A DNA stretch of 64,000 nt from a virus. A program made the translations under genes and the position numbers. Below the pieces are notes generated by a model that saw nothing but the letters and a program-made list of their open reading frames with translations, had not been told where the DNA came from and made no database searches. The stretch is taken from positions 12,323-76,322 of IMG/VR virus record IMGVR_UViG_3300047678_000276. The stretch is one strand, 5' to 3'. Of the stretch, positions 2,138-41,479 are shown piece by piece. Numbering within the stretch: position 1 is the stretch's first letter; each line of letters opens with the position of its first letter.

Positions 2138-2225
2138 AATTTTAACCCTCTTTTGGATGGGCCCTCATTTTAATTGTTAAACATTTATTTACTTATACTT
2201 GTATAGACACATTTAAATTAAAAAC

Positions 2226-2954
2226 TTAAAAATATTTCCACAAATAATTTCCTGCACTTTTTCTTTTGTTAACACATACTTCTCTAATATGACCACCGCT
2301 TATTTTTAATTTCCTTGAAGCTTCTTCTGTGGATTTCCAGATTTTAATTTCATTTCCTTCTCTATCCAATTGAATTACTTTTTTAGAAAGTCGATCTGAT
2401 AGTTTTTCTTTTAAATTTTTAATTGGATCGACTGTATTTGATTTATAATTTTTTACAATATATCCTTTTATTAAGTGATTTTTGTTTATACTTAAAGACA
2501 AAGAAACTCTTTTAACCTCTAAAAAATCAGCACAATCTATGTGTGCATCGAATTGTCTAAAAAACGTACCATCTTTTTTATAGAGGAAAACTGATTTTAT
2601 AGCATTCTTGTCTCTGAAGCCTACCATCCCATCTCCACCATCAGTCAAATTAACTAAAGAACCTTTTTTATTATCAATTTTTTTGCCGTAAAACTTTATT
2701 AATTCTTTTTCTTTGTTTTTTATCTGGTCATGGTCATCACTTTCAAAGATAATATTTATAGAATATTCTGTTTTAGAAGTTATATTATTCCAAAATTTAC
2801 TTCTATATCTGCCTTTTTGTTTAGATCTAGAATAATCTTTCGAATTATTATATTTAGCCCCTATGCCAATATAGAATATTTCATTAGTGTCTAACCTTAA
2901 ATGTGAGTACACATAATACTTACCATTTAAATCTGTTGTCTTAATTATAATCAT
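2226..2954 (-). CDS. Free-standing homing endonuclease, GIY-YIG-like with NUMOD1 repeats
   Basis: YVY..FYIGIG..R..E..NLTDGGDG; C-terminal KVIQLDREG..WKSTEEASR..SAGNYLWKY. Confidence 0.8.
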   Translation of the reverse strand: MIIIKTTDLNGKYYVYSHLRLDTNEIFYIGIGAKYNNSKDYSRSKQKGRYRSKFWNNITSKTEYSINIIFESDDHDQIKNKEKELIKFYGKKIDNKKGSLVNLTDGGDGMVGFRDKNAIKSVFLYKKDGTFFRQFDAHIDCADFLEVKRVSLSLSINKNHLIKGYIVKNYKSNTVDPIKNLKEKLSDRLSKKVIQLDREGNEIKIWKSTEEASRKLKISGGHIREVCVNKRKSAGNYLWKYF

Positions 2955-3086
2955 GTTTTTAATTATAAATATACAAAAAAATTATAGTTTATAATACTGT
3001 CCCATGTTGTTATTTTTTAAAGTTTATATATGAATAGAAAGGTTTATAGGGAGAACTTAAAAATTTCTCAAAAAAAAAGAGGAGAT

Positions 3087-4022
3087 TTAATTCTCCTCTT
3101 CTACATTTGATACTTCCGTTATTTTTGTGTCGATTCTACCGACAAGTTCGTACAGTTCTTTTTCGAGCAACTCTCCCTTTAATGCTTCAAGCAATGTTGT
3201 TGTGTTGTAGTAATTATCATTTGCAATAGCAACTTCAACAACTCTTTCTGGACTTAACTTACTAAGCAAGACAGCTACAATATCAGAGGCAAACTCCTCA
3301 TCTTCACAACTACCATACATATCAATCAAATCCGTAATATCATATCCTTTAACTTCTGTAGCAAGGATTAAAGCTTTAGGGCTTCCGCCTTTTGGTACAT
3401 TTTCTTCTGTTACAATACCTTTTTGAAAAGTTAATTCACCGCAGTTATGTCCAAAGTCCTCATCAGCATAGCGCACAAATAATTTAACTTTTGGAAACAT
3501 TTCAGAAAGCTTTTTGATAATAGGATATGGAGTACCCCATGCTGTATTGAAACTGAACGAATCGATGCTTTCCTCTGTTTGAGAATAAGCATTCCATTTT
3601 GTTCCCCACTTATCGTTGCACCAAGAATACCAATCCTTATGACCGTATTTCTTTATGTTGTCAAGAGCTTGTTGACCAGTAACCAGATTAGCACGATTTT
3701 CTTTCAAAAGATAATCCGTCAATGTGCTTATATCTTTTATTCCTTCAGCTTTAACCCAAGGCCAAGATAACATGTTTGTTAATTCTGCTGAATCCCCTGT
3801 TTTTCTAAAGATAAGTATCGCCATTCCGTTGTCTGTAGAAGAACCCGATTCTATACGTAACTCTTCTGGCATTGGAATAATCTTATTGAAATCGATTATG
3901 GTCCCAACGTCGTCATCTTCTTTTCCGTCCGCAGTTGCATCAGGTCGAATTGCGTTTCTTAAGGCGATGATATCTTCCTTGGCCCCTTTTAATTTTATTT
4001 GTGTTGTTACGTGATTAGGCAT
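3087..4022 (-). CDS. DUF1281/Api92-like (YubB ferredoxin-like) phage protein
   Basis: MPNHV..DFNKIIPMP..WY.W...WGTKWNA..F.TAW.P motifs. Confidence 0.7.
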   Translation of the reverse strand: MPNHVTTQIKLKGAKEDIIALRNAIRPDATADGKEDDDVGTIIDFNKIIPMPEELRIESGSSTDNGMAILIFRKTGDSAELTNMLSWPWVKAEGIKDISTLTDYLLKENRANLVTGQQALDNIKKYGHKDWYSWCNDKWGTKWNAYSQTEESIDSFSFNTAWGTPYPIIKKLSEMFPKVKLFVRYADEDFGHNCGELTFQKGIVTEENVPKGGSPKALILATEVKGYDITDLIDMYGSCEDEEFASDIVAVLLSKLSPERVVEVAIANDNYYNTTTLLEALKGELLEKELYELVGRIDTKITEVSNVEEEN

Positions 4023-4077
4023 GATGTATTGTTTTTATATTAATATATAATGATTAATAGGGAGAACTTAAAAACTT

Positions 4078-4839
4078 TTATCCTTTTAATTCAGTAATGT
4101 TTTTGCCTTGTTTAACAGAGTATGCTCTTTCCTTTTTATCAACCAACCCTTCTGTATATTGACGAACAACATTCATAAGAGTTCTCAATTGTTTGTCATC
4201 AAGATTTTCTTTTAACCCATCAATTTTGATTGTAATAGGTTTTGGCTTTGAAACTTTCTTTGCAGCAGTTTTCTTCTCAGTAGTTTTTTTATCAATCAAG
4301 AATACTACATCAGTCTGCATAAAATTGCTCTTGCTTTGTGGATAAGCATATGCCTCACAATTTTCAGGAGTAATTTCTTTTTTAGTTCCTTTATAAGGCT
4401 CAGTAAACACTTTATTGTTTTCAATATAAATTTCACCAACATCCCCTGTTTCTTCACCTTGCCAAGTTACCTGTCCGTTTAAGACATAACCATTTGGTGC
4501 AAGTATTTTATGAATGAGATAAACCAACCATTCAGTATAGTAATAGAATTTCCCACCACCATCCCACACAATTTCTGTCCCATCTTCATTTGGAACCCAT
4601 TGACACCATAATCCTGGTTGAGTTCTTGGTGGTTTGTTATGGTCAATAACATCAGGCATTGTGCCTTGACCTGAATTTCCTGTGCCTTCAATGAAGAATT
4701 CACCTTCAACACCAAACTCTTTTGATTGTTTGCGTGCCATTCTACGAGTTCCTGAGAACTTTGTGATGAAATCTTTCATCTTTTCTGATAGTGGCTTGTT
4801 TAATTCAAAACTGCCATCGAAGTCTGTTGTATATCCCAT
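4078..4839 (-). CDS. Conserved hypothetical phage protein (MGYTTDF..QPGLWCQW)
   Basis: ORF with own class-1 motif. Confidence 0.75.
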   Translation of the reverse strand: MGYTTDFDGSFELNKPLSEKMKDFITKFSGTRRMARKQSKEFGVEGEFFIEGTGNSGQGTMPDVIDHNKPPRTQPGLWCQWVPNEDGTEIVWDGGGKFYYYTEWLVYLIHKILAPNGYVLNGQVTWQGEETGDVGEIYIENNKVFTEPYKGTKKEITPENCEAYAYPQSKSNFMQTDVVFLIDKKTTEKKTAAKKVSKPKPITIKIDGLKENLDDKQLRTLMNVVRQYTEGLVDKKERAYSVKQGKNITELKG

Positions 4840-4885
4840 ATTTGTTTTTTTATTAATAGAATGATTTGTTTGTGAAACTTAAAAA

Positions 4886-5197
4886 TTAAATGTGTGGTAA
4901 ATATCTGCTTGGCCCAGTCTCCATATAGTACTTGCCATCCTTTTCTTTGCGAACCATTTTAAACCCCTCAATAATATCCTGACAAGTTTGCTTCGCACCA
5001 TCATTTCTGCCATCAGTCCGATAACCCTGGTCTGCTGCAGCTTCGATTGTTTCCAGAAATAATCTGATTGTTGATTGTTGTAAAGTTCTGTGCTGGTTAA
5101 ATAGAGCTTTAATAAAAGCCTTTCTGTTCTCATCACTGAATGTGTTCACAAAATCTGTGATTGTTTCTGCTAATTCTTCTGGTGTTAATCGTTTCAT
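4886..5197 (-). CDS. Hypothetical protein (HRTLQQ motif)
   Basis: ORF with nested class-1 and class-2 promoters. Confidence 0.7.
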   Translation of the reverse strand: MKRLTPEELAETITDFVNTFSDENRKAFIKALFNQHRTLQQSTIRLFLETIEAAADQGYRTDGRNDGAKQTCQDIIEGFKMVRKEKDGKYYMETGPSRYLPHI

Positions 5198-5253
5198 GTT
5201 TGTGTTTTTATATTATACGTAAGGATAGAATAAAGATTACAGGAACTTAAAAA

Positions 5254-5514
5254 TTAATATATCCAGGTCTCAAGGATTCTTATTTCATATTCCAACCCGT
5301 CAATGTTAACCAGGAAATCTTCATATGGAGAGCCAGCGAACAGGTCAGGAATTTCCGTAAGCTCTATATCCATAACATCGTAATGTTCACATATAGCTTT
5401 TGTAAGTCTTTCTATAAATAATTGTTTGCCGACTTTGTTGTTTGTTACATTATCAATTGTGCCGATCATTGGAGATTCATTATCTCCTAATTCTATAATT
5501 GTGAAATGTTTCAT
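5254..5514 (-). CDS. Hypothetical protein
   Basis: ORF with class-1 motif. Confidence 0.65.
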   Translation of the reverse strand: MKHFTIIELGDNESPMIGTIDNVTNNKVGKQLFIERLTKAICEHYDVMDIELTEIPDLFAGSPYEDFLVNIDGLEYEIRILETWIY

Positions 5515-5617
5515 ATTGTTTTTATTTAATAGAATGAAACTTCTGGGAAACTTAAAAATAAAAAGGGAGAGCTATTAACTCTCCCAATTTACCCGTACCA
5601 AGATCAAGTCTTGTTTG

Positions 5618-5691
5618 TGAGAAAGGCGTGGAGTTGAACCAGCGACACAAGACTGTTCAGGTCTTTGCTCTACCACCTGAGCTACTTCCTC
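5618..5691 (-). tRNA. tRNA-Phe(GAA), atypical (C37, bulged T-stem)
   Basis: Acceptor GAGGAAG/CTTTCTC; anticodon arm AAGAC-CTGAACA-GTCTT; GGTTCAACTCC. Confidence 0.7.
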
Positions 5692-5740
5692 ATTTATTAA
5701 AGTAAATATAATAAAGGGAGAGCTTAAAACAAAATATTTT

Positions 5741-6565
5741 TTAATTTTCTTCTTCGAATTCTGGTTCGTTAATTTCTTCTAAATAACCTGCTGCCTCACC
5801 GAAAGTATCCCACATTTCAGGGCGATAGCATCCAATAAGTTGTGAAGGTCTGCCTTCATTTCCAGAAGGGAATATGAATTTGCTATTGAAAAAACCTTCT
5901 TCAGTCATTTGTCCTTTGATATTCACAAGGTTATCAAAAGCTAAGGCCGCTATTGTCAAGTCATGAATTCTGTCATGGCTGTGTGCGCCGTGTCCAAAAT
6001 AATTGCCATAAGCAAGATGTTCCTGGAATAACTTATAAGCCCTGTCATATCTTTCTTGAAAGTCTTTTCTTCTATTGCCTGTGAAATTCTCCAATGGTTT
6101 GCCGATTGGATTAACATTTCTTTTTGAGAAGCTTTTTGAAGCTGCAATTATACTTTGTTGTTTTGGATCAATTTTACATAATTGGTGAATTCTTTTAACC
6201 ACTTCTGTATGGCCAACAACATCTCTGAAATAATTATTTGCTCCTCCAGAATAATCTTTCATATTCTTTATGGTGCGATATAAGAATGTGCATCCACTAT
6301 GATTAAAAGCTCCTTTTGAGATGGTGATATAAATACCCATAACATCATTAAACATCCCCATAAGATGGAGGTCACCTGAAACCGCAATTCCGCCTGCATT
6401 AAAACTAACTTCAAATTCTCGAAGCTTCAGAGCGCTTGCCAGATGTTTCATTGCTTTAAGACCTCTTTCTTTAAATTTGTCTTTTGCAGATTGATCATAA
6501 GAAAGGTCATTATACTGTACGAATCTTATAAGTCTTGCCAATTGGCTTGTGCTTGTTGTTTTCAT
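5741..6565 (-). CDS. Hypothetical protein (NAGGIAVSGD motif)
   Basis: 274-aa ORF with class-1 motif. Confidence 0.75.
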   Translation of the reverse strand: MKTTSTSQLARLIRFVQYNDLSYDQSAKDKFKERGLKAMKHLASALKLREFEVSFNAGGIAVSGDLHLMGMFNDVMGIYITISKGAFNHSGCTFLYRTIKNMKDYSGGANNYFRDVVGHTEVVKRIHQLCKIDPKQQSIIAASKSFSKRNVNPIGKPLENFTGNRRKDFQERYDRAYKLFQEHLAYGNYFGHGAHSHDRIHDLTIAALAFDNLVNIKGQMTEEGFFNSKFIFPSGNEGRPSQLIGCYRPEMWDTFGEAAGYLEEINEPEFEEEN

Positions 6566-6595
6566 GTTGCTTAATTTATATGAATAGAAATTATT

Positions 6596-7066
6596 TTAAG
6601 AAAACTTAAAAATGTATTTGTCTGAATCTGAAGTTTTTATAAACTGACCGTATTCTTTGTCTTCACCTCTAGATTTAATTTTAACATAATGCATGCCCGT
6701 GGTTGTATGTTTTTCTTCTGTTTCGAAGTTAAAGATTGAAAGTAATAGTCTCATCTCAAGTTTATCAATTGTTCTTCTGTCAGTGTGAATTCTCATTACC
6801 AATTCTTTAAAGTCTTTGCATTTTAAGAATGAGTTAATTTTTTCGCAAGCAGTTAAATAATCTTCAGTGTCGTCAATCAATTCGTTCAAGCGCTGAAAAG
6901 CATATTCTGTTTGTTCTTTGGTGCCAATATTCATTCTGCCAAAACTCAATTGTGAGTTGGCCACATCAATCCCGTATGTACCGCTGTCAACAAATACCAA
7001 TACAATAAGGCTATCCTTTTTGTATTTGTGTGTTTGTTCTTTTATTATTCTAAATCCTCCGCTCAT
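6596..7066 (-). CDS. Hypothetical protein
   Basis: ORF with class-1 motif. Confidence 0.65.
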   Translation of the reverse strand: MSGGFRIIKEQTHKYKKDSLIVLVFVDSGTYGIDVANSQLSFGRMNIGTKEQTEYAFQRLNELIDDTEDYLTACEKINSFLKCKDFKELVMRIHTDRRTIDKLEMRLLLSIFNFETEEKHTTTGMHYVKIKSRGEDKEYGQFIKTSDSDKYIFKFS

Positions 7067-7136
7067 ATTAAACCGTATTGTTAATGCGCTCTTTTCTTTG
7101 ATAGAAAGGAAACTGTGTAAAACTTAAAAAACTTTA

Positions 7137-7223
7137 TTTTTAAGTTCTGGTCAGAAACTTTCTATTGGTTGGCACTTACAGATCCAGGAAAGAAATAAAA
7201 AAAAGGAGAATGATCTCCTCTTT
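7137..7223 (+). other. Counter-oriented non-coding unit 1 (class-1 motif + GTTGGCAC..GATCCAGG + hairpin)
   Basis: 7154-7189 is 35/36 identical to 36965-37000; related copies at 17463, 23737, 29968, 33866, 36947, 40767. Confidence 0.75.
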
Positions 7224-7227
7224 TAAT

Positions 7228-7581
7228 TTATTTAAACATTTCCATTTGAGTTCCAATTCCTGTGAAGTCTGCAAGTTGCATTTCGAAAACCTCATCAATG
7301 AAACCTCCATACTGGTCTAGCATATCAGGATGATATAACCCGTCTTTATCAGCAACCCAAAAACCTTTCTCATAATCTTCCTTAATGAGCTTGGCTAGTT
7401 CTTTATGGTCTTTTTCTGTTGAGGCTAATTTTGGTTCGAACTGAATTGACTTCTCGCCGAACTTATCATACCAGTCTCTGGCCATCCAGTGTCCATCAGG
7501 GTCATTTCCGATTGATTCATTCTCTAATTGGAATAGTAATTCAGCTAGACCAATAAATTCTTTCATTGTGTATTTTTTCAT
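7228..7581 (-). CDS. Hypothetical protein
   Basis: ATGA overlap with the upstream gene suggests start at 7581. Confidence 0.6.
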   Translation of the reverse strand: MKKYTMKEFIGLAELLFQLENESIGNDPDGHWMARDWYDKFGEKSIQFEPKLASTEKDHKELAKLIKEDYEKGFWVADKDGLYHPDMLDQYGGFIDEVFEMQLADFTGIGTQMEMFK

Positions 7582-7799
7582 TTTAATTCTTTTAAGAGTT
7601 TTTGATATTTCTTTGTATTCATCCATTTAATAACTGTGGTCGCATTATGTCCGATATTTTTATCTCCGCTTACAGGATAATCAACCAGGATATAATCAGG
7701 CTTGTCAGAATTAAAAGACGCTGCCTGGATTATGCCTCTCTCTTTACGAAAGGGGTTATAAAAATCTATGCCGCTACTTATTGCAAATACTTTGTCCAT
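7578..7799 (-). CDS. Hypothetical protein
   Basis: ATG 6 nt after TCTAT. Confidence 0.65.
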   Translation of the reverse strand: MDKVFAISSGIDFYNPFRKERGIIQAASFNSDKPDYILVDYPVSGDKNIGHNATTVIKWMNTKKYQKLLKELK

Positions 7800-7815
7800 G
7801 TTTTAATAGAATGAT

Positions 7816-8055
7816 TTATTTGCGAAACTTAAAAATACGATCAACTAATTCCTGAGGATTGGTATGAAACAAGTGAACTGCATTCACCATTGGTATAGCA
7901 ACCGAAGCGTCCTCCTCAATTTCATCCAGGTGATAATAAACCACATGAATAGGATCCTTGGTCTCGCCTTTGTCGATGTAAATTCCTACACTTTCCTGGT
8001 CGATAGAAATTTCTAACTTTTCTTTTTTTCCGTTTATGATTACTTGTTTTCTCAT
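7816..8055 (-). CDS. Hypothetical protein
   Basis: ATGA-coupled to 8052-8384. Confidence 0.6.
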   Translation of the reverse strand: MRKQVIINGKKEKLEISIDQESVGIYIDKGETKDPIHVVYYHLDEIEEDASVAIPMVNAVHLFHTNPQELVDRIFKFRK

Positions 8056-8384
8056 GCTACCCAAAATATATCTTTAATTTCTTTATTTTTTATTGTGAAA
8101 TGAACCTCCACATCAATGAAGCGTGTTAGTGATTCATGTTGGTCTGTAATACTTTCAACATGAACCTTGCCGAATTTAACAGCTAGTTCAGTTTCAGGAT
8201 TTTCAACATAATCCTTTGATAGTTTCATTACTTTAAACTCCTCAATGCCAAGACTTACAAAAAACTCACTAAAGTCTTTTTGTGAAGGATGTTTAGCAAT
8301 TGAAATAATCTTGTTTTTAAGTTTATCAACCACTCCAAACAATTTAACTTCTTCTTCTTTTTTTAAAGGATAATGTCCAGCCAT
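8052..8384 (-). CDS. Hypothetical protein
   Basis: ORF with class-1 motif. Confidence 0.65.
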   Translation of the reverse strand: MAGHYPLKKEEEVKLFGVVDKLKNKIISIAKHPSQKDFSEFFVSLGIEEFKVMKLSKDYVENPETELAVKFGKVHVESITDQHESLTRFIDVEVHFTIKNKEIKDIFWVA

Positions 8385-8430
8385 GTTATTTTTATTTAAT
8401 AGAATGATTTGTTTATGAAACTTAAAAAGA

Positions 8431-8721
8431 TTATTTTGTTATAAGCAATTCAACTTCACTTGGCGCAACTTCAACGAAACCAAGTTTTTGAATATCTTTT
8501 TCAAATTCATATTCAGAAATGTTTTCAAAGAAGTCTGGATAAACTCTTAAGAACCCTCTCATTGTGTCAATGAAACAATCTACCATAACTCCCATGTAAG
8601 TATTGCTTATACTGTTATAGGTGTAAATAAATGATATAGTTGAATCTCTGTAGTGATGAACATTAAATACAATGTCCTTATTTTCTTTTACGATCTTCGA
8701 ATAATTTGGCTTAAATTCCAT
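8431..8721 (-). CDS. Hypothetical protein
   Basis: Start moved to MEFKPNY, downstream of the class-1 motif. Confidence 0.6.
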   Translation of the reverse strand: MEFKPNYSKIVKENKDIVFNVHHYRDSTISFIYTYNSISNTYMGVMVDCFIDTMRGFLRVYPDFFENISEYEFEKDIQKLGFVEVAPSEVELLITK

Positions 8722-8763
8722 GTTGTTTTTATTTAATAGAATGATTTGTTTGTGAAACTTAAA

Positions 8764-8976: not shown

Positions 8977-8982
8977 ATTTAT

Positions 8983-34759: not shown

Positions 34760-34972
34760 TTAAAGAATTAAAACTTTATAGTTATCAACTTTTTCATGTT
34801 CAATACCAAGCTTTGTTAACCCCTCACAAATGCGAACAGAATCCATGCTCTCAATCATCCAGCCTCTACCAGCTTTTAACCGAGCATCATCCACATCAAG
34901 CGCATTAAACGCCTTAAGCATTCGTAGCCAATTCGATTTGCCTTTTTCCTTTGGTGCTAATAATACATCCAT
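34760..34972 (-). CDS. Hypothetical protein
   Basis: ORF ending in next motif. Confidence 0.55.
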   Translation of the reverse strand: MDVLLAPKEKGKSNWLRMLKAFNALDVDDARLKAGRGWMIESMDSVRICEGLTKLGIEHEKVDNYKVLIL

Positions 34973-35188
34973 ATCTTATTTGTTTTTCTTTTTACGTTGT
35001 TCATTTGCGTATTCCTTTAGTCTTTTCTTTTCATAGAAATCTAAAAACTCCCCTTTTCTTTCTTTTCTTAAAAGGTCTTTAATTAGGTGGAAATACATGG
35101 TCGATTCGCCACGTGTTCTGAATGATTTTAAAATACTTGCTCTCATGGTTGGTTGGTTTATATGAATAGAAACAAATGAAGGGAGAAC

Positions 35189-35509
35189 TTAAGATTTTCT
35201 TCTCCCTTTTTCAATAATTTTTGCAGTCAATTCCTTATCCTGATTAGGATTATAAGGGTCTGAAATTTCATAGATTGCAAGTCTGCACATCAAGGCATTT
35301 AATTGGTCATCATTTAATTCAGCAGCTCTCTGGCCCACCTCAAATAAAATGTCCCCAAATATCTGCAAAGGAATTCTTAATGCAAACCCCTCTTTTGAGT
35401 ATTGTGCAATTTCTTTTAAAAGTCCAGGAGTGTTAACTCTCCACTGAAGTCCACTATCTTTTTCGACTTTGTCTTTGAATTGTGCTTTTCGCTTAGGTTC
35501 TTTTGGCAT
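35189..35509 (-). CDS. Hypothetical protein
   Basis: Class-1 motif. Confidence 0.65.
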   Translation of the reverse strand: MPKEPKRKAQFKDKVEKDSGLQWRVNTPGLLKEIAQYSKEGFALRIPLQIFGDILFEVGQRAAELNDDQLNALMCRLAIYEISDPYNPNQDKELTAKIIEKGRRKS

Positions 35510-35558
35510 GGTTGGTTGGTTTATATTAATAGAAAGGATTTAAGAGGAACTTAAAAAT

Positions 35559-35852
35559 TTACATATCCAAAAAGCTAAATAAGCTTGGATGAATTTCTCT
35601 TGCTTGTTTTTCAGAAATGCGTTTGCACTTCTCTCTTAAATAATCATTATGAACCGACGTAGAACCAACGCCTGAGTTTCTTGTGTAAAATACTGCTCCA
35701 ATGGCATCGTAATGAGCGCCATCTTTATTTATGCGCAATGTATCATCTAACACCGCAACAACGTTTCCTGAGTGATTTCCTGGATTCTTACGAGTCCCTT
35801 TATTTTTTTCAGTCTTATTTTCGTATTCTAAGAAAAATTTGATTCCGTTCAT
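35559..35852 (-). CDS. Hypothetical protein
   Basis: Start MNGIKFF after class-1 motif. Confidence 0.65.
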   Translation of the reverse strand: MNGIKFFLEYENKTEKNKGTRKNPGNHSGNVVAVLDDTLRINKDGAHYDAIGAVFYTRNSGVGSTSVHNDYLREKCKRISEKQAREIHPSLFSFLDM

Positions 35853-35914
35853 GATTTCTTTGGTTGGTTGGTTATATTGGAATAGAAACAATTCAAGGGA
35901 GAACTTAAAAACTC

Positions 35915-36139
35915 CTATAAAGGAAATGCTTTAATGATTGCCTTAATTTCTTTTTTATAGCCCATCATAGCACACTTAATAAAAAACTTACCATTCTCCT
36001 CTCTACCAAAACAAGTGCCTCCTAGTTGATTCATAATGATGTCATGAGCCTTTTGAGATACCTCAACTTGTGTATCATACTTCAACTTGAATGGTTGAGG
36101 GGTTATTTCGTTCATAAAATTTTGTCTTTCAATATCCAT
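35915..36139 (-). CDS. Hypothetical protein
   Basis: Class-1 motif. Confidence 0.6.
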   Translation of the reverse strand: MDIERQNFMNEITPQPFKLKYDTQVEVSQKAHDIIMNQLGGTCFGREENGKFFIKCAMMGYKKEIKAIIKAFPL

Positions 36140-36184
36140 GATTGGTTGGTTTTATAAATTAATAGAAAGATTATTGATTGAAAC

Positions 36185-36541
36185 TTAATAACCCGTAACA
36201 ATTATTCCTTGTCCTGATACTGATTGCTCACGTCCAAACGCATCCACAAAACGAATGAAGTTTGAACTTTGACTCAAAATTGAGTCTGTTACAAATGTTT
36301 GGTGGTCGCCATAATTTATTACCTCGACTGTGTAAAACTTTTTGCCGTGCTTTTTTGAATTTGCATAAGTTACGCCATTTAATGCGAACTTCGCCACAAT
36401 AGCAATGATTGCTAATGCGAATACTACTTTAAACATTATTCCAAAATTATTCATAGTTTTTTTGTTTTTTTTAAACGCATCATCAAACTCCTTATCAAAA
36501 TTTTCGAATTCTTTATCGAATTTATCCCAGTCTGTGTGCAT
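36185..36541 (-). CDS. Single-TM membrane protein
   Basis: Hydrophobic FGIMFKVVFALAIIAIVA; class-1 motif. Confidence 0.65.
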   Translation of the reverse strand: MHTDWDKFDKEFENFDKEFDDAFKKNKKTMNNFGIMFKVVFALAIIAIVAKFALNGVTYANSKKHGKKFYTVEVINYGDHQTFVTDSILSQSSNFIRFVDAFGREQSVSGQGIIVTGY

Positions 36542-36596
36542 TTGGTTTAGTTTTGTTGGTTATATGAATAGAAACAAATTGATTAAAACTTAAAAA

Positions 36597-36890
36597 TTAT
36601 TCAGCCATTACATGAGCAAATAAAAACCCCTCTCTTTTCATTGTTCCATACAACTCACTCAATTCTTTTTTTTGCTCTAAACACTCCTTAATGATATTGT
36701 TATTGCTTGTTGCATAACTACGCTCCTCTAATTTTTTCATCATATTCTCAACATTCCATTCCAAGCAAATAAAAACCTCTCCCATCATAATAGACTTAAC
36801 ATCCATAAATGGTGCATTGTGTTTTACAAATTCAAATGTTGATTTTGAAACACGTACATTTATAAGTTTATATTCGCTGATTACTTTCAT
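36597..36890 (-). CDS. Hypothetical protein
   Basis: Class-1 motif. Confidence 0.6.
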   Translation of the reverse strand: MKVISEYKLINVRVSKSTFEFVKHNAPFMDVKSIMMGEVFICLEWNVENMMKKLEERSYATSNNNIIKECLEQKKELSELYGTMKREGFLFAHVMAE

Positions 36891-37064
36891 GGTTGGTTGG
36901 TTTATTGTAATAGAATCAAATCCAGTTAGAACTTAAAAAGTATTTGTTTTTAAGTTTGGCCCCCGAAACTTTCTATTGGTTAGCACTTACAGATCCAGGA
37001 TAAACAAAAGCGAGTCGGAACCACCCGACTCGCTACCTTTAGAAACCAAGAAACCAACTACACT

Positions 37065-37241
37065 TTATTTCCCCTTGCTCACCACTTTGTCAAGAATTTT
37101 GACGTGGTGAAAAATATGATGTTCTGACTTGCCATGCTCCGCCATGTGTTCTTCATAGTGAGTGCTTTCAGAGTCATTCATATACTCCAATACTTTTTTT
37201 AATGCTTTTATTTCTTTTGGTGTTAATGTGATTGTTTTCAT
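37065..37241 (-). CDS. Small His-rich protein (58 aa, not in the ORF track)
   Basis: ATG 6 nt after TCTAT; ..HYEEHMAEHGKSEHHIFHH.. Confidence 0.55.
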   Translation of the reverse strand: MKTITLTPKEIKALKKVLEYMNDSESTHYEEHMAEHGKSEHHIFHHVKILDKVVSKGK

Positions 37242-37270
37242 ATTGGTATAGAAAGATTATTGATTGAAAC

Positions 37271-37708
37271 TTAAAACTCATCTAACACATTTGTCATTTT
37301 AATGATATAATCAGAATGACACTCTGACACTTCAGTTATTGCCTTAATCAGAATACAATAGAACTTTTCATTATAAAATTCCATTATGTTTTTTGGAAAC
37401 TTTGAAGGCATGACATTATTAAGCATATCAGTTAATAACTTATGAGGTTTTCTATATTCGTTCAAATAATCTACTGGACCCCAATGATAATTAATAGATA
37501 TATTATATGGTTGAGTTTCATCAAAAATTATAAATACCCTTGCATCTATTGAAGAATTTTTTGGTACATAAGAAAATACTCCATCTCCCTCTCCATACTC
37601 CATTGGATAGCCTGGATGAATGTGAGTACCCTCAAGTATATTAAGAGCATTTGAAATGTTCTTAAATAACTCTTTTGTTCTTGACTTTTCTAGTGTGGTT
37701 GTTTTCAT
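37271..37708 (-). CDS. Hypothetical protein
   Basis: ATG 6 nt after TCTAT; stop in next motif. Confidence 0.65.
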   Translation of the reverse strand: MKTTTLEKSRTKELFKNISNALNILEGTHIHPGYPMEYGEGDGVFSYVPKNSSIDARVFIIFDETQPYNISINYHWGPVDYLNEYRKPHKLLTDMLNNVMPSKFPKNIMEFYNEKFYCILIKAITEVSECHSDYIIKMTNVLDEF

Positions 37709-37736
37709 GTTTGAATAGAAAGGAAATGATCGAAAC

Positions 37737-37997
37737 TTAAAAATCTTTTGCAGTTACCAATTCCAATGCCATGTACAATCCCAATGGCACATTGATTTGC
37801 ATAACATCAACCGAGTTCATCATTTGGTCTGCAATCTTAACGCTATTGAAAAACTCAAACTTCATCTCCTTAATGTATTTCAAACCTGTTTCAGTTACAC
37901 CTGTTGCTTTTTCTCCTTCATCACCAACAAGCTGACGAATTGTTAAGAAATGGCTTAACTGTTCTTTTTTATGAATGAATATCGAAACTGTGATCAT
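37737..37997 (-). CDS. Hypothetical protein
   Basis: ATG 6 nt after TCTAT. Confidence 0.6.
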   Translation of the reverse strand: MITVSIFIHKKEQLSHFLTIRQLVGDEGEKATGVTETGLKYIKEMKFEFFNSVKIADQMMNSVDVMQINVPLGLYMALELVTAKDF

Positions 37998-38012
37998 ATG
38001 GTTATAGATAAT

Positions 38013-38291
38013 TTATTTGTTCAAACTTAAAAACTTCTCCTCATTCAATAAGTCAAACTTTCCTGTCCACCCTTTTATCTTTGTCTCTCCCTCAGGATTA
38101 CCAATGGCAATAATATCTTCGTTCTTAATGAACTCCCCAAGCGAATGATGCCCATAAAGAAAATGAACCAAAACTCTGTCCTCGTATACCTTTGTGATAT
38201 TGGTAACTTGTATTTCAGTTGGCTCACCTCCGTGGTAATTAAATCCAAATGCGATAAAATCCCCTTCTTTTAAATCTGAAACTTTTTTCAT
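38013..38291 (-). CDS. Hypothetical protein
   Basis: Start MKKVSD after class-1 motif. Confidence 0.6.
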   Translation of the reverse strand: MKKVSDLKEGDFIAFGFNYHGGEPTEIQVTNITKVYEDRVLVHFLYGHHSLGEFIKNEDIIAIGNPEGETKIKGWTGKFDLLNEEKFLSLNK

Positions 38292-38325
38292 TGTTGGTTG
38301 GTTTAAATGAATAGAAACAAAATGA

Positions 38326-38550
38326 TTAGAACTTAAAACTTTCAAAGTCAATTATTGTCCAATTAATTTCCCCGTTCTCCCAAGCCTCATTACCATCATT
38401 CTCAGCGTTCAGTATCTCTCTTGCTGAATCCATTAAGGCAGTCATCAAATCATCCTCAGAGGTGCTATCAGGCACTTCCACGTGATAAGGGTCAGTCCCT
38501 ATGTATTCGCCGTTATGAACGAAACGTATATCTACTTTATAAACAATCAT
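38326..38550 (-). CDS. Hypothetical acidic protein
   Basis: ORF ending in next motif. Confidence 0.55.
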   Translation of the reverse strand: MIVYKVDIRFVHNGEYIGTDPYHVEVPDSTSEDDLMTALMDSAREILNAENDGNEAWENGEINWTIIDFESFKF

Positions 38551-38786
38551 TTTATTTTTGTTTAATTGAGAATGGAAACGCACCTTTGCCTTTTAAGCAA
38601 CACACACGAATGAAAGACTTTGCTTTCTTGTCATCTCCACCGATGAACATTGTGTTTGTTCCGCCTGAATAGTTTGCTAAAACTCCGTAGTTGTTTGCTT
38701 GTTGAATGAATGCTAATTTTGACATGGTTTATTTTTTTATGGTTTATAATTTAATAGAATGATTTTTGAGGGGAACTTAAAAAGAA

Positions 38787-39128
38787 TTATAATGAAGTTA
38801 GTTGACATTTTTCCCAATAAGTAGGTATAGACCTTTCTAATGTTTTCAAAAGTTCTTTACAAAATTTATCTCCCTTTTTTGCTTTAGACAACATAATAAA
38901 ATGAGAATAGATAGCATTTCTAATAAGAGGGTTTAACTCTTTCATTTGCTCATCAGTTAAATGTTTAACATGAAAGTTCTCTATATTGTTTCTAACTGAC
39001 AAAGCCAAACATTTTGCTACAAATTCTAATACGACTAATTCATCATCAGACAAAAGAGATAAATCGCTAAGCTTCTTTTTTGTTTTTGCTATATCTTTTT
39101 TAAGATTTTTTATGAAGTCTTTTGACAT
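38787..39128 (-). CDS. Hypothetical protein (RN.IENFH...L.D.QMKELN)
   Basis: Class-1 motif. Confidence 0.65.
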   Translation of the reverse strand: MSKDFIKNLKKDIAKTKKKLSDLSLLSDDELVVLEFVAKCLALSVRNNIENFHVKHLTDEQMKELNPLIRNAIYSHFIMLSKAKKGDKFCKELLKTLERSIPTYWEKCQLTSL

Positions 39129-39181
39129 GGTTGGTTGGTTGGTTTAAATGAATAGAAAGAAAAATCCAGGAACTTAAAAAA

Positions 39182-39382
39182 TTATTTCTTAACCTCAACT
39201 CCCATAGATTTATAATACTCCTCACTCGTTAATGGCTTGGCATATGCTCTATGTTTGCAGTCAGGACACTCATAAGAACCATGAAGTCCAATTCCAGCTT
39301 GCCACTCTCCAATGGTTGCATATCTTCCGCATCTGCATCGAGCGTGTGAGCTTGGCATTAAATTGTTGTTGTGTTTACTCAT
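39182..39382 (-). CDS. Small zinc-ribbon protein (CRCG..CPDC)
   Basis: Class-1 motif; two Cys pairs. Confidence 0.6.
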   Translation of the reverse strand: MSKHNNNLMPSSHARCRCGRYATIGEWQAGIGLHGSYECPDCKHRAYAKPLTSEEYYKSMGVEVKK

Positions 39383-39480
39383 GGTTGGTTTGGTTTATCT
39401 ATTGTAATAGAATAAAAAAAAGGGAAACTTAAAAAAATTTCCCTCTCCCAGATAAACAAAAATTTATAAACCCCTCTCCC

Positions 39481-39717
39481 TCAATTCTCAAACATTGGAA
39501 CCGCCACATCAATAATAACAATATCACAATGATGGTCAACCAAATCATCTTGACGATAATTCACAATATCTCCCTCCACAAGCCCATTATCATCCAAAAC
39601 ACTCCCTCCAATAGCAAACTTCTCCCCAGTCATAATATCCTTTAAAATGTGAGTTAAATCACTCCAGAGAAAATTAATCTCTCCCTTTTTGGCTCTTAAT
39701 AGAATTGCTTTTTTCAT
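39481..39717 (-). CDS. Hypothetical protein
   Basis: Class-1 motif. Confidence 0.6.
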   Translation of the reverse strand: MKKAILLRAKKGEINFLWSDLTHILKDIMTGEKFAIGGSVLDDNGLVEGDIVNYRQDDLVDHHCDIVIIDVAVPMFEN

Positions 39718-39971
39718 ATTGGTTGGTTTCTATTGTTATAGATAAATAACCCACCAAAACTTAAAAACTCTCCCTTTGCCATTTGCCCACCTTTTTGGAT
39801 CTACACAAACTCCCACCAAAAGCGCTAACATATAGAAACAATAAGCCATAAACTTAAAAACTCTCCCCAATATAAAGTTATAAACATTCTGTCAACAAAA
39901 AAACCCCAAGCGATCTGCAAGGGGTTTTTAAAACTTAAAAAGAAAGGGGAATTTTAACTCCCCTCACTTTA

Positions 39972-40550
39972 TTAATCTTCGATGATGTAATTTGTACCTT
40001 TGAAAGTAAGTGCGATAATGTTTGTAAGTGTGATTGTTAAGCGAAAGAAATTATTTGCCTCGTCAACCAAACCACGACCCGCTGTCTTTTTTTCAGCGAA
40101 GTAAGCAGGTGCAAACAAATTCTTTGCGATTGCATCCTCCTTAGAGATTTTTTTGCCTTCATTGTATAACCATACATTTACTTTTGCCTTTTTTTCTTGG
40201 TCGCATACCAAATACTCAACATTTGCATTTTTGTTCATAAAGGCTAAACAATTTGAGCCTTCAACAAAAGTCTTTCCACTCATTTCCTGACTTTCAAAAC
40301 CTACTTCATCCCCTTGCTTCTCTAAACGTGTATTAACACGATTTTCGTAATTAGAGCCGATTGTGATGTTTCTGAAAGTTAATTTTTGAAGTAAGCGTTT
40401 ACCCTTTACTACACGACTGCCATATTCATCAGTGAACGCTACAATGTGAGCAAATGTTGTACCCTTGTGCTTTAATAACATTTCACGTAATTCAGCAAGT
40501 GTAATTGTTTTTTGATTTTTTCTTTTACTTGTACGATTGATTTTAGCCAT
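39972..40550 (-). CDS. Hypothetical protein, first gene of the leftward array
   Basis: Preceded by two class-1 and one class-2 promoter motifs. Confidence 0.75.
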   Translation of the reverse strand: MAKINRTSKRKNQKTITLAELREMLLKHKGTTFAHIVAFTDEYGSRVVKGKRLLQKLTFRNITIGSNYENRVNTRLEKQGDEVGFESQEMSGKTFVEGSNCLAFMNKNANVEYLVCDQEKKAKVNVWLYNEGKKISKEDAIAKNLFAPAYFAEKKTAGRGLVDEANNFFRLTITLTNIIALTFKGTNYIIED

Positions 40551-40933
40551 TTTTTCTTTTTTTTAAAGGTTTATATTGTTTGTTTATCTATTGTAATAGA
40601 ACGTTATTTGTTTGAAACTTAAAAACTTTTTTGTTAACCTTATTGCAATAATTATACGAATTAGATACAAATAAGTTACAAAGTAAATTGTTAAAATTTC
40701 AGATTGTCAATTAACGTGTTATCTATTGTAATAGATATAAACCCACCCAAAACTTAAAAACTTTTCTTTTTAAGTTTCACCCAAAAACTATCTATATGTT
40801 AGCACAAAAAAATAACCACATAATGATCAGCGCCAACATATAGAAACAAAAAACAATAAACTTAAAAACTCCTTTTTTTTAAGTTCATATAAAGATTATA
40901 TCTATAACAATAGAAACCAATCAAAACCAAAAT

Positions 40934-41230
40934 ATGAAAAAAATAACCACATTAGAACAATTACAAAAGGCAGTTGAGGGAACAAAATTCGCTCAGGACA
41001 TGACAACCAGCATGAGCGTAAATGGTAACCCAATGCCACACGGATATTGGAATTTAATATGCTCTATTAGAGATTGTAAGCTCTACTCAAAAGGAATTAA
41101 ACCAACTCGCAGTTGGAAGATTTCAGATGTGAAATGGTATTTCAGTGTGAGTGGTAGTGCTGAGAAAATTGCTGAAACTTTGGAGATGTATAAAAATATC
41201 TTAGTGCCAGAGAAAAAAGAAGCTGCTTAA
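40934..41230 (+). CDS. Hypothetical protein
   Basis: Class-1 motif in + orientation at about 40876-40905. Confidence 0.7.
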   Translation: MKKITTLEQLQKAVEGTKFAQDMTTSMSVNGNPMPHGYWNLICSIRDCKLYSKGIKPTRSWKISDVKWYFSVSGSAEKIAETLEMYKNILVPEKKEAA

Positions 41231-41290
41231 TTGCAGTTTCTTTTTAAGTTTCAGTTAGTTTTCTATCTATAACAATAGAAACCAACCAAC

Positions 41291-41479
41291 ATGGCAAAGA
41301 ATAAAAATAAAAAACTAAAAATTACAGCAGAACAAATCTATAACATAGAACGTACTGCTCGCAGACAAGCTGATATTGAAATGGGTGTCCCTTTCTTTAA
41401 ACATAAAGCTCATAAGACTGCAAAAGACTACACACGAAAGCCAAAACATAAAAAATACATTGACAGAGGGGACGAATAA
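41291..41479 (+). CDS. Small basic protein ending K.YTRK.KHK (ArfA-like tail)
   Basis: Class-1 motif in + orientation; 10-bp hairpin 41462-41489 overlaps the stop. Confidence 0.6.
   Translation: MAKNKNKKLKITAEQIYNIERTARRQADIEMGVPFFKHKAHKTAKDYTRKPKHKKYIDRGDE

What the first reader, a model, noticed from the sequence alone, without database searches (positions are those of the whole stretch)
2200..41479. About 40-kb one-gene-one-promoter cassette array built on TTTTAAGTT-N14/15-TCTAT
Seen: roughly 90 copies (by-eye estimate) of a bipartite motif with fixed 14-15 nt spacer, nearly one per small ORF. It faces into its gene, flips orientation with the genes at about 40.8 kb, and I saw none after 41.3 kb. 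It does not match the Bacteroidota -33/-7 consensus that occurs elsewhere in the window. Established: the shape resembles ECF-sigma promoters (GAACTT-N16/17-TCT); promoter-dense host-takeover modules (SPO1) and repeated PeSL regulatory cassettes (T4-type phages) are known. Inference: a dedicated phage sigma factor or RNAP, possibly virion-delivered, drives a modular early arsenal, and the repeats may also let genes be gained, lost and shuffled.
Basis: partly seen in the sequence, partly recalled or inferred. Interest (0 to 1): 0.8.

Follow-up and report, generated by a model that had tools for sequence, protein, structure and literature searches.

The report
Phage one-promoter-per-gene cassette array
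An uncultured phage, probably of Bacteroidota, puts an almost invariant private promoter (TTTTAAGTT-N14/15-TCTAT) before nearly every gene of a 50-kb block; genes are gained and lost at these promoter copies, and the factor that reads them is not identified.

Summary
The window holds 86 exact copies (0.02 expected) and the 76-kb viral contig holds 94. About 81% of ORFs in the span have their own copy, facing into the gene.

The motif (P1) is very probably a sigma-70-family promoter. It has two blocks and a 14/15-nt spacer of free sequence. Start codons pile up at exactly +7 after TCTAT (26 here, 86 in relatives, none at neighbouring positions). This places the transcription start there and predicts leaderless mRNAs.

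P1 is near-invariant in more than 1,200 copies across three divergent lineages and at least 120 metagenome contigs. It is absent from 15 other phage records and not enriched in 20 Bacteroidota genomes. Cassette indels between relatives begin and end at P1 copies.

An ECF-type sigma gene lies inside the array, just left of the window. It most likely reads a second motif I found, P2 (TGTAAC-N16-CGTAT), not P1. P2 has the SigW promoter shape, and P2 occurs in other phages that carry homologous sigmas but no P1. The sigma keeps the two guanine-contacting residues that fit GTAAC.

The scan's other first-stage notes on this contig describe the same array.

The parts
2203..41270 (.). P1 promoter array. 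86 exact copies of TTTTAAGTT-N14/15-TCTAT, mostly one per small minus-strand ORF. It continues to about window -10,900 on the contig.
40596..40624 (-). Representative P1 copy, upstream of ORF 39972-40550. It lies in a tandem P1 (40731-40759), P2 (40655-40680), P1 arrangement at the head of the array.
40877..40905 (+). Plus-strand P1 driving ORF 40934-41230, where the array flips orientation.
41242..41270 (+). Last P1 copy, driving ORF 41291-41479. A hairpin follows at 41462-41489.
7138..7165 (+). Gene-less P1 copy, back to back with minus-strand P1 7101-7129 (AACTTAAAA-N8/9-TTTTAAGTT). It is followed by the conserved box tGGTTGGCAC and a terminator hairpin. The same kind of unit occurs at 17464-17491, 23738-23765, 29969-29996, 33867-33894 and 36948-36976.
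40768..40867 (.). Convergent pair of gene-less P1 copies (40768-40795 + and 40840-40867 -), 44 nt apart. Each is followed by (A)TGTT(A/G)GC(A/G)C. They would give fully complementary short RNAs.
39832..39859 (-). Gene-less minus-strand P1 copy followed by ATGTTAGCGC.
30318..30346 (-). P1 copy whose TTTTAAGTT lies in the loop of a terminator-like hairpin (GGGGAGAGA..TCTCTCC plus a T-run). It is one of about 7 such terminator-promoter overlaps. It is also a hotspot where relatives carry 2-4 extra cassettes.
37276..39406 (-). Six-cassette block absent from relative L230. Both breakpoints lie at the upstream edge of P1 copies (37248-37276 and 39407-39434).
11970..11995 (-). P2 promoter (TGTAAC-N16-CGTATAAT) before ORF 11538-11957.
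12316..12341 (+). P2 promoter before the plus-strand tRNA-Met, tRNA-Glu, tRNA-Glu cluster (12385-12864).
51982..52007 (-). P2 promoter before ORF 51549-51962. Another is at 57356-57381(-), before ORF 57118-57342.
48666..48695 (-). Bacteroidota sigma-A-type promoter (TTG-N19-TATATTTG) before ORF 47999-48643. A similar one is at 61561-61591(-).
50889..50896 (+). Example of the third, late-like motif TATTTATA (P3) after a T-run. It lies 3-25 nt before at least 12 gene starts between 41.9 and 60 kb and is three times denser there than in the array.
2..400 (-). 3' part of a conserved 307-aa gene. The phage ECF-type sigma gene (219 aa) lies just left of it, outside the window at contig 10768-11427(-), behind a composite P1/P2 promoter at contig 11453-11488.

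Best explanation
P1 (T-TTTTAAGTT-N14/15-TTCTAT) is a phage-private promoter of sigma-70-family, ECF-like geometry. TTTTAA(GTT) acts as the -35 block and TTCTAT as the -12..-7 block. Transcription starts at the conserved A, 7 nt after TCTAT. About a quarter of the genes in this lineage are therefore leaderless. The rest carry short A/C-rich leaders without a Shine-Dalgarno sequence, as in Bacteroidota. Host core RNA polymerase is directed to about 100 such promoters per genome by a dedicated sigma-like factor. That factor is not the host primary sigma. It is probably also not the ECF sigma encoded in the array, which reads the sister motif P2 (TGTAAC-N16-CGTAT). The P1 factor is most likely a second phage sigma encoded in the unsampled 59% of the genome. 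Each small gene is thus an autonomous promoter-gene cassette, sometimes with a terminator. Recombination between the near-identical promoter copies adds, deletes and swaps whole cassettes. Shown here: the repeat, its placement, the +7 start-codon spike, family-wide invariance, absence elsewhere, and breakpoints at P1. Inferred: promoter function, the start site, the sigma-type reader and its identity, early timing, and the recombination mechanism.
For: Promoter placement:
- 86 and 94 exact copies against 0.02 expected.
- 72 of 89 ORFs have their own copy facing in.

Start site:
- First ORF-opening ATGs sit at exactly +7 in 26 of 99 copies here and 86 of 955 in metagenome relatives. There are none at +6 or +8 and almost none between +1 and +12. 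A position-exact spike is what leaderless mRNAs starting at +7 require.
- A at +7 is conserved in 79 of 94 copies even where no ATG follows.
- This start puts TTCTAT at -12..-7 and TTTTAA 16-17 bp upstream, which is canonical sigma-70-family geometry.

Two-domain reader:
- The spacer varies in length (14/15) and is free in sequence. This fits two-domain sigma recognition, not a single-subunit polymerase.
- P1 and P2 share one frame: xTAAx-N16/17-xxTAT.
- Among about 1,260 promoters there is 1 GTAAC+TCTAT hybrid and 0 TTAAG+CGTAT hybrids. This implies two separate bipartite specificities.

Phage-private:
- 777 exact copies in 456 kb of at least 120 metagenome contigs.
- 53 exact copies in G001 and 17 of a relaxed pattern in part of G002, whose sigma is only 35-36% identical.
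- Zero P1 in 14 other phage records and one chance-level match in a fifteenth.
- 31 matches against 92 control matches in 20 Bacteroidota genomes.

Host type:
- Bacteroidota sigma-A-type promoters are conserved before two other genes in 2-3 lineages.
- Leaders are 63% A and 4% G; SD-like 4-mers occur in 2 of 55.
- The nearest cellular sigma homologs are nearly all Bacteroidota.

The array sigma reads P2 rather than P1:
- It is ECF-type, and its best solved relative is SigW (E 2e-20).
- P2 matches the SigW-type shape TGAAACnTTT..CGTA (-35 consensus from PMC6713349; the -10 CGTA from my own knowledge).
- The sigma keeps the Lys and Arg that contact G'-31 and G-35 in the SigW/-35 crystal. The Thr that reads A-34 is replaced by Ala or Val, which fits GTAAC.
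- P2 is abundant in other phages: 44, 28, 27, 21, 15 and 13 copies, with controls of 0-1. Many of these encode homologous sigmas with the same recognition-helix pattern. They have no P1.

Cassette turnover:
- Half of 127 homology breakpoints against about 85%-identical relatives lie within 20 nt of a P1 copy, against 11% for random positions.
- Multi-cassette indels are bounded exactly by P1 copies.
Against: There is no transcript data at all; the start site and promoter function are inferred. No factor for P1 has been seen. Profile searches found only one sigma in the 76-kb contig and in about 600 kb of family DNA, so the second phage sigma is hypothetical. The array sigma gene carries a P1 copy as well as P2 in all three lineages. 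This would also fit autoregulation through P1. The assignment of that sigma to P2 rests on homology to SigW contacts and on co-occurrence, not on an assay. One complete P2-using phage (G032, 5 copies) showed no sigma region-4 match. P1 sits in every intergenic gap, so breakpoints at P1 cannot be told apart from breakpoints at gene boundaries. Early timing rests only on gene content and layout.
Confidence: 0.55

Rival explanations
1. The ECF sigma encoded in the array (contig 10768-11427) is itself the reader of P1. P2 serves as an ignition promoter read by a host ECF sigma or another sigma. The composite P1/P2 promoter before the sigma gene gives ignition plus positive feedback, and the array is then a delayed-early or middle class.
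For: It is the only sigma found in the contig and in about 600 kb of family DNA. It is conserved next to the array in all three lineages, and a P1 copy directly precedes it in each. It needs no unseen factor. The -10 of E. coli sigma-E type promoters also starts with TCT (own knowledge), so an ECF sigma reading TCTAT is conceivable.
Against: Its sigma-4 helix keeps both guanine-contacting residues that fit GTAAC, not TTAAG. Homologous sigmas with the same helix pattern occur in phages that use P2 at 6-44 sites and have no P1. P2 is not enriched in 20 Bacteroidota genomes (20 matches against 38 control matches), so a host reader for P2 lacks support. These sigmas are only 35% identical between lineages, yet P1 is invariant.
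Confidence: 0.25
2. P1 is read by a phage RNA polymerase that is not sigma-dependent and is perhaps virion-delivered (single-subunit, N4-like, crAss gp66-like or phiKZ-like). It would be encoded in the missing part of the genome and would make the array rifampicin-resistant immediate-early genes.
For: The 14 specified bases are near-invariant in more than 1,200 copies, a stringency typical of phage polymerases. 59% of the genome is unseen. Another first-stage note reports shared terminal peptide tags on late proteins, which could mean packaged proteins (not tested here).
Against: A bipartite motif with a spacer of variable length and free sequence, in the same frame as the ECF-type P2, is a sigma-like signature. 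Early transcripts of the crAss-like phage phi14:2 have no common upstream motif. By my own knowledge, T7-like promoters are contiguous and N4 early promoters are hairpins. No ORF above 518 aa exists in the 76 kb.
Confidence: 0.1
3. P1 is read by a host alternative sigma factor that the phage hijacks, for example an envelope-stress ECF sigma switched on by infection.
For: Bacteroidota carry about 22 ECF sigmas per genome (PMC7826278). P1 has ECF-like geometry. Invariance of P1 across divergent phage lineages would follow from a conserved host reader.
Against: P1 is not enriched in 20 Bacteroidota genomes (31 matches against 92 control matches). The true host is unknown, so this is weak evidence. 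No other phage record out of 15 tested uses P1, which is odd if a common host sigma read it.
Confidence: 0.07
4. The repeat is not a promoter. It would be a recombination or packaging site, an RNA-processing site, or a selfish intergenic repeat.
For: Breakpoints of homology sit on it. Nine copies in the window face no gene.
Against: It has a strict orientation towards genes. Its distance to start codons is fixed, with the exclusive +7 class. It flips strand with the genes. Its two-block structure shares a frame with an ECF-type promoter.
Confidence: 0.03

Closest known systems
T4-type early promoters and PeSL (promoter-early stem-loop) cassettes in hyperplastic regions (named from my own knowledge; not re-read here)
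   Same: There are many small genes of unknown function, each with its own promoter. The promoter repeat, sometimes with a stem-loop, flanks the units. Gene content differs between relatives, with breakpoints at the repeats.
   Different: PeSL promoters are host sigma-70 early promoters. P1 does not match the host (Bacteroidota) consensus and is phage-private. Only about 7 of 94 copies carry the hairpin. Circular excised forms could not be looked for. Density and invariance are much higher here.
Phage sigma cascades: SPO1 gp28 and gp33/34, phiEco32 and 7-11 gp36 (phiEco32 and 7-11 from PMC4331800; SPO1 from my own knowledge)
   Same: The phage encodes its own sigma-70-family factor, and temporal classes have private promoters. 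Three phage-specific motifs (P1, P2, P3) occur here beside a few host-type promoters.
   Different: phiEco32-type promoters are single-element (tAATGTAtA) and few, about 6. Here two bipartite ECF-like codes coexist, one of them at about 100 sites, and the sigma for the main one is not found.
Bacillus subtilis SigW-type ECF promoters (TGAAACnTTT, -35 consensus from PMC6713349; the -10 CGTA from my own knowledge) and E. coli sigma-E (-35 GGAACTT from PMC6713349; spacing and a -10 beginning TCT from my own knowledge)
   Same: P2 (TGTAACTTTT-N12-CGTATAAT) is nearly the SigW shape. P1 has the same frame and a sigma-E-like TCT in the -10 block.
   Different: P1 has TTAAG in place of the near-universal AAC and a spacer 1-2 nt shorter than sigma-E. 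No cellular genome tested uses either motif above background.
crAss-like phages of Bacteroidota (phi14:2; bioRxiv 10.1101/2020.03.07.982082)
   Same: Probable host phylum. Some crAss-like phage records carry weak homologs of the sigma (25-31% identity), most of them annotated as sigma-W-like factors.
   Different: Early transcripts of phi14:2 made by the virion polymerase show no shared motif, and its middle promoters are of host TTG/TAnnTTTG type. Neither P1 nor P2 occurs in phi14:2 (for P2).

Membership tests
sigma-70-family (ECF-like) bipartite promoter | Two conserved blocks separated by a spacer of nearly fixed length and free sequence | tested here: met
   TTTTAAGTT and TCTAT are invariant. 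The spacer is 14 nt (36 copies) or 15 nt (58 copies) with low information content.
sigma-70-family (ECF-like) bipartite promoter | The downstream block ends about 6-7 nt before the transcription start | tested here: inconclusive
   There is no RNA data. The indirect evidence is an exclusive class of start codons at +7, 112 cases in all, with none at +6 or +8. This implies a start at +7.
sigma-70-family (ECF-like) bipartite promoter | A cognate sigma factor is identified | tested here: not met
   One ECF sigma is present, but the evidence assigns it to P2. No second sigma was found.
sigma-70-family (ECF-like) bipartite promoter | Canonical ECF -35 AAC and -10 CGT | tested here: not met
   P1 has AAG and TCT. 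P2 has AAC and CGT.
Bacteroidota primary-sigma promoter (-33 TTTG / -7 TAnnTTTG) | TAnnTTTG about 7 nt before the start, and TTTG 19-21 nt upstream of it | tested here: not met
   P1 contains neither element. The type occurs at other sites and is conserved before two genes in relatives.
T4-type PeSL mobile regulatory cassette | A promoter plus stem-loop repeat flanks small ORFs | tested here: inconclusive
   The promoter repeat flanks 72 of 89 ORFs. A hairpin encloses the -35 block in only about 7 of 94 copies. Terminator-like sites number 30 against 9.7 expected in 20 kb.
T4-type PeSL mobile regulatory cassette | Gene gain, loss and replacement between relatives have breakpoints at the repeat | tested here: met
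   50% of 127 breakpoints lie within 20 nt of P1, against 11% for random positions. Examples are given.
T4-type PeSL mobile regulatory cassette | Excised circular single-cassette forms exist | not testable with these tools
   Only assembled contigs were available. The joints listed have sides of 20-36 nt and are repeat cross-matches.
T4-type PeSL mobile regulatory cassette | The promoter is of host primary-sigma early type | tested here: not met
   P1 differs from the host-type promoters present on the same contig.
single-subunit (T7-like) phage RNA polymerase promoter | A contiguous conserved block of about 20 bp across the start, with no variable spacer, and a polymerase gene in the phage | tested here: not met
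   The spacer varies in length and sequence. The largest ORF in the 76 kb is 518 aa. The rest of the genome is unseen.

The most novel reading that the evidence does not exclude
This uncultured phage family runs its genes on two orthogonal, near-invariant ECF-like promoter codes: P1 (TTAAG/TCTAT) and P2 (GTAAC/CGTAT). Two different phage sigmas read them. The P1 sigma would be delivered with the DNA or made first, and would fire about 100 autonomous, partly leaderless single-gene cassettes. The same promoter copies act as the recombination substrate that shuffles the accessory gene set. Gene-less P1 copies, single or as convergent pairs with the conserved GGTTGGC start box, punctuate the array as insulators or as sources of short complementary RNAs.
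Probability: 0.3. Interest if true: 0.75.

Novelty: new variant of a known kind. Interest (0 to 1): 0.62.

Why it matters
The array shows how a phage can wire a large, fast-turning accessory gene set. Each gene carries an identical private promoter. Any cassette is therefore expressed wherever it lands, and the promoter copies themselves provide the homology for gain, loss and exchange.

The motif is also useful in practice. A 14-base pattern retrieves the whole phage family from metagenomes. The exclusive +7 class of start codons gives a sequence-only estimate of the transcription start and predicts abundant leaderless mRNAs in a phage that probably infects Bacteroidota.

The strict pairing of P1 and P2, with almost no hybrids among about 1,260 promoters, is a natural example of orthogonal sigma-promoter pairs of the kind sought for synthetic circuits.

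P2 turns out to be a widespread promoter of diverse large phages that carry ECF-type sigmas. I found no phage-related description of the P1 string among the 20 top-ranked of 498 papers that hold it. The P2 string was not searched in the literature.

Tried and rejected
RNA evidence: no RNA holder was listed for window 31001-41000; the full holders are two moss-metagenome DNA runs.

Read laying: four DNA runs, held only as contigs, gave joints whose sides are 20-36 nt. These are cross-matches of the promoter repeat, not rearrangements or circles.

The 92-kb and 100-kb contigs that carry the sigma and the 122-aa protein could not be fetched.

Searches that gave nothing useful:
- The first IMG/VR scan with the bare motif saturated on single chance matches. 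A back-to-back pattern and a CTCCC-spacer pattern were needed instead.
- No nucleotide match to isolated phages. No tblastn match for the conserved 354-aa core protein. A GP88-like protein gave no IMG/VR relative and only a weak Streptomyces phage hit.
- The huge phages that share the IMPDH-like gene carry no P1.
- Literature search for the motif strings: none of the 20 top-ranked of 498 papers concerns phages.
- ESM Atlas gave no usable hit for the 354-aa protein.

Ideas tested and dropped:
- Host autoregulation: no AAC..CGT or AAG..TCTA motif is conserved upstream of 80 Bacteroidota homologs of the sigma, and none of those loci carries P1.
- Host use of the motifs: neither P2 nor P1 is enriched in 20 Bacteroidota genomes.
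- A second sigma: hhalign of all ORFs of 80 aa or more against the sigma profile, and hmmsearch over family ORFs, found only the one sigma. The 193-aa and 250-aa HTH-like ORFs are not sigma-like.
- The most conserved core protein (122 aa, under a sigma-A-type promoter) looked like a candidate regulator. Its invariant GHSH and HEEH motifs suggest a metal-binding enzyme, so it was dropped.
- A sigma-70 TTGACA/TATAAT scan of the array found 62 sites against 76.6 expected, so no enrichment.
- In P2-using phages the sigma genes are not preceded by P2, so autoregulation is not general.

Full report
**1. The observation**

The pattern TTTTAAGTT-N14/15-TCTAT (called P1 below) occurs 86 times in the window. 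Dinucleotide-preserving shuffles give 0.02. The window is bases 12323-76322 of a 76,322-base IMG/VR viral contig that CheckV rates 41% complete. The contig holds 94 copies, 82 on the minus strand, and the array continues about 11 kb left of the window.

Aligning the copies extends the consensus to T-TTTTAAGTT-YY..(T-rich)..T-TCTAT-nnnaATAtAAA. The spacer is 15 nt in 58 copies and 14 nt in 36, with almost no sequence information.

The median ORF is 94 aa and the median promoter spacing is 402 nt.
- In 23 of 94 copies the TAA inside TTTTAAGTT is the stop codon of the upstream ORF, so the packing is very tight.
- The last two copies (40877-40905 and 41242-41270) lie on the plus strand before plus-strand ORFs. 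There are none further right.

**2. Is it a promoter, and where does transcription start?**

No RNA data could be had. The sequence itself gives a proxy. I took the first ATG after each copy that opens an ORF of at least 30 codons.

- The ATG lies at exactly +7 after TCTAT in 26 of 99 copies on this contig and in 86 of 955 copies in metagenome relatives.
- None lies at +6 or +8, and almost none between +1 and +12.
- All other starts spread over +11 to +40.

A class this exact is what leaderless mRNAs need, because the AUG must be the 5' end. So +7 is the likely start. The A at +7 is conserved in 79 of 94 copies even where no ATG follows.

With the start at +7, TTCTAT occupies -12..-7 and TTTTAA lies 16-17 bp upstream. 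That is the geometry of sigma-70-family promoters. The variable spacer length argues for a two-domain reader and against a single-subunit polymerase.

The leaders that do exist have a median length of 16 nt, are 63% A, 21% C and 4% G, and carry a Shine-Dalgarno-like 4-mer in 2 of 55 cases. This is the Bacteroidota style of translation start.

**3. Host and phage family**

- Megablast of the right-hand 21 kb of the window matched no isolated phage, and the conserved 354-aa core protein gave no tblastn hit.
- Promoters of Bacteroidota primary-sigma type (TTG-N19-TAnnTTTG) are conserved before two genes in two or three lineages.
- The closest cellular homologs of the phage sigma are nearly all Bacteroidota.
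- An IMPDH-like gene matches huge and crAss-like phages, among them Prevotella and Bacteroides phages.

P1 defines a family.

- A second IMG/VR contig (G001, 33.6 kb) has 53 exact copies, all with a 15-nt spacer.
- A third (G002, 30.8 kb) has the same motif: 17 copies of a relaxed pattern in the 17-kb part examined.
- Single-mismatch variants are rare, 2-8 each against 1,021 for the core pattern in those contigs.
- P1 is absent from 14 other phage records, with one chance-level match in a fifteenth.
- It is not enriched in 20 Bacteroidota genomes: 31 matches against 92 for the reversed control.

**4. A sigma gene, and a second promoter code**

Six-frame Pfam searches found one sigma-70-family gene on the contig, at 10768-11427(-), just left of the window and inside the array. 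It has Sigma70_r2 plus r4_2 and scores over the cut-off of TIGR02937 (sigma70-ECF). G001 and G002 have orthologs at only 35-36% identity within a conserved syntenic core.

In all three lineages the gene is preceded by a composite sequence: TTTTAAGTT-TTGTAAC...TCTAT-(t/a)AA-CGTATAA. The second element is a separate motif, P2 (TGTAAC(TTTT)-N12-CGTATAAT).

- P2 occurs 13 times on this contig, 5 times in G001, 7 in G002 and 29 in the metagenome loci.
- In the window it precedes the tRNA-Met/Glu/Glu cluster and four ORFs.
- In the left part of the contig P2 heads multi-gene operons, whereas P1 heads single genes.

P1 and P2 share one frame: xTAAx-N16/17-xxTAT. They never mix. GTAAC with TCTAT occurs once and TTAAG with CGTAT never, among about 1,260 promoters. 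This indicates two separate holoenzymes, each matched in both blocks.

A third motif, TATTTATA after a T-run (P3), lies 3-25 nt before at least 12 gene starts right of 41.9 kb. It is three times denser there than in the array, and it looks like a late, -10-only promoter.

**5. Which motif does the sigma read?**

Four lines of evidence point to P2.

- P2 has the canonical ECF shape and is nearly the SigW promoter. SigW is the best solved relative of the sigma (E 2e-20) and the top NCBIfam match for the contig's own sigma.
- In the SigW sigma-4/-35 crystal, K170 contacts the G paired to C-31, R175 contacts G-35 and T171 contacts A-34 (PMC6713349). The phage sigma family keeps the Lys and the Arg, which are invariant or nearly so across 32-92% identity. 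It has Ala or Val in place of the Thr. This fits G-T-A-A-C and not T-T-A-A-G.
- P2 is widespread in other IMG/VR phages. Copy numbers reach 44 in 102 kb, 28 in 62 kb, 27 in a complete 325-kb genome, then 21, 15 and 13, with controls of 0-1. All six P2-rich records that are at least half complete and have a sigma region-4 match encode homologs of this sigma (profile E 1e-12 to 1e-42), and most show the same recognition-helix pattern VK[AGV]x[VI]NRx[KR]. None of them has P1.
- P2 is not enriched in 20 Bacteroidota genomes (20 matches against 38 control matches), so a host reader is not indicated.

There are counterpoints. G032, a complete 101-kb phage with 5 P2 copies, showed no sigma region-4 match, and neither did G019 (7 copies, 57% complete). 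In the other phages the sigma genes are not themselves preceded by P2.

My estimate is about 70% that the array sigma reads P2 and about 25% that it reads P1.

**6. Who reads P1?**

Profile-profile comparison of every ORF of 80 aa or more against the sigma profile found no second sigma. An HMM search over ORFs from about 600 kb of family DNA found none either.

The common frame of P1 and P2 suggests a paralogous ECF-like sigma. A distant 246-kb relative has two to three sigma genes, so multi-sigma phages exist in this neighbourhood. With 59% of the genome unseen, a second phage sigma is the most economical proposal. It would be made first from a host-type promoter, or delivered with the DNA. 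It remains hypothetical.

**7. Cassette turnover**

Relatives about 85% identical in DNA are collinear with the window but differ by many indels.

- Of 127 distinct internal homology ends, 50% lie within 20 nt of a P1 copy, against 11% for random positions. The median distance is 20 nt against 150 nt.
- The ends peak just upstream of TTTTAAGTT and just after the leader.
- Relative L230 lacks window 37276-39406, six cassettes, with both ends at P1 copies.
- Relative L212 has four extra cassettes exactly at the P1 copy 30318-30346. It also carries, between window positions 29570 and 29957, a cassette 70% identical to the gene at 39.8-40.5 kb.

The caveat is that P1 sits in every intergenic gap, so the test cannot separate "at P1" from "at gene boundaries". 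Circular forms could not be examined.

**8. Gene-less copies**

Nine copies in the window face no ORF.

- Seven are plus-strand copies set back to back with a minus-strand copy (AACTTAAAA-N8/9-TTTTAAGTT), at intervals of 3-10 kb.
- Two are minus-strand copies. The one at 40840-40867 converges on the plus-strand copy at 40768-40795.
- All are followed by the box (A/T)(G/T)GTT(G/A)GC(A/G)C in place of the usual nnnaATA. The six non-convergent plus-strand copies mostly run about 35-60 nt to a hairpin.
- Convergent pairs recur elsewhere on this contig and in G001 and G002.

The box is conserved in all three lineages. Its role is unknown. Possibilities are a short RNA, complementary RNA pairs, an insulator, or a parked polymerase.

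**9. Comparison and verdict**

The array works like T4-type early-promoter/PeSL regions and like sigma-cascade phages (SPO1, phiEco32). It differs in four ways. It has a private, nearly invariant, ECF-like bipartite code at about 100 sites per genome. It has a sister code (P2) shared with many other large phages. It has a leaderless gene class.

It is a new variant of a known kind.

Noticed in passing
IMG/VR records G004 (102 kb), G005, G028 (325 kb, complete), G031, G018, G023, G011 (loci L366, L460, L466 and others): P2 (TGTAAC-N16-CGTAT) is a widespread promoter-like motif in many other low-GC, often jumbo phage contigs. Copy numbers are 44, 28, 27, 21, 15 and 13, with reversed-pattern controls of 0-1. 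In places it forms dense arrays of its own, for example 14 copies in 7.3 kb of L466. Several of these phages encode ECF-type sigmas homologous to the one here.
   Followed up: partly
contig 10428-10685(-) and 9721-10374(-) (window -1894..-1637 and -2601..-1948): An 85-aa helical ORF follows directly after the sigma gene and is more conserved (54%) than the sigma (35%). After it comes a 217-aa protein whose only hits are far-below-threshold matches to membrane-protein families and a UVR motif; it sits behind a Bacteroidota sigma-A-type promoter that is conserved in three lineages. The layout recalls sigma/anti-sigma modules. Binding was not tested.
   Followed up: no
contig 4333-4701(-) (window -7989..-7621): A 122-aa protein is the most conserved gene of the family (75-98% identity in 47 clusters). 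It has invariant RHGDM, GLGEVTGHSHE, HEEH and NPF motifs, which suggest a small metal-binding enzyme. It lies behind a conserved host-type promoter and heads a five-gene operon.
   Followed up: partly
window 41884-60000: A third promoter-like motif, TATTTATA after a T-run, lies 3-25 nt before at least 12 gene starts on both strands. It resembles T4 late promoters (TATAAATA).
   Followed up: partly
window 5617-5691(-), 12385-12864(+): There are four tRNA genes: Phe, Met and two Glu, one of which is 87 nt long. The Met/Glu/Glu cluster lies on the plus strand inside the minus-strand array, behind a P2 promoter.
   Followed up: partly
window 40768-40867; contig 1431-1527; G001 17035-17110; G002 15321-15373: Convergent pairs of gene-less P1 copies lie about 45-50 nt apart. 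They would yield fully complementary short RNAs or cause head-on polymerase collisions. The arrangement is conserved in three lineages.
   Followed up: partly
window 9230-9970, 10653-11519, 15457-16299, 16374-17189, 2226-2954: The array cargo includes a ligase or capping-enzyme-like nucleotidyltransferase, a C5 and an N6/N4 DNA methylase, a GP88-family protein (with a second copy at 48689-49936) and a NUMOD1 homing-endonuclease-like ORF.
   Followed up: no
window 57586-58722(-), 62395-63264(-): There are IMPDH/GMP-reductase-like and NAD-synthase genes. The former is 40-48% identical to genes of 460-640-kb huge phages and of Lak phages.
   Followed up: no
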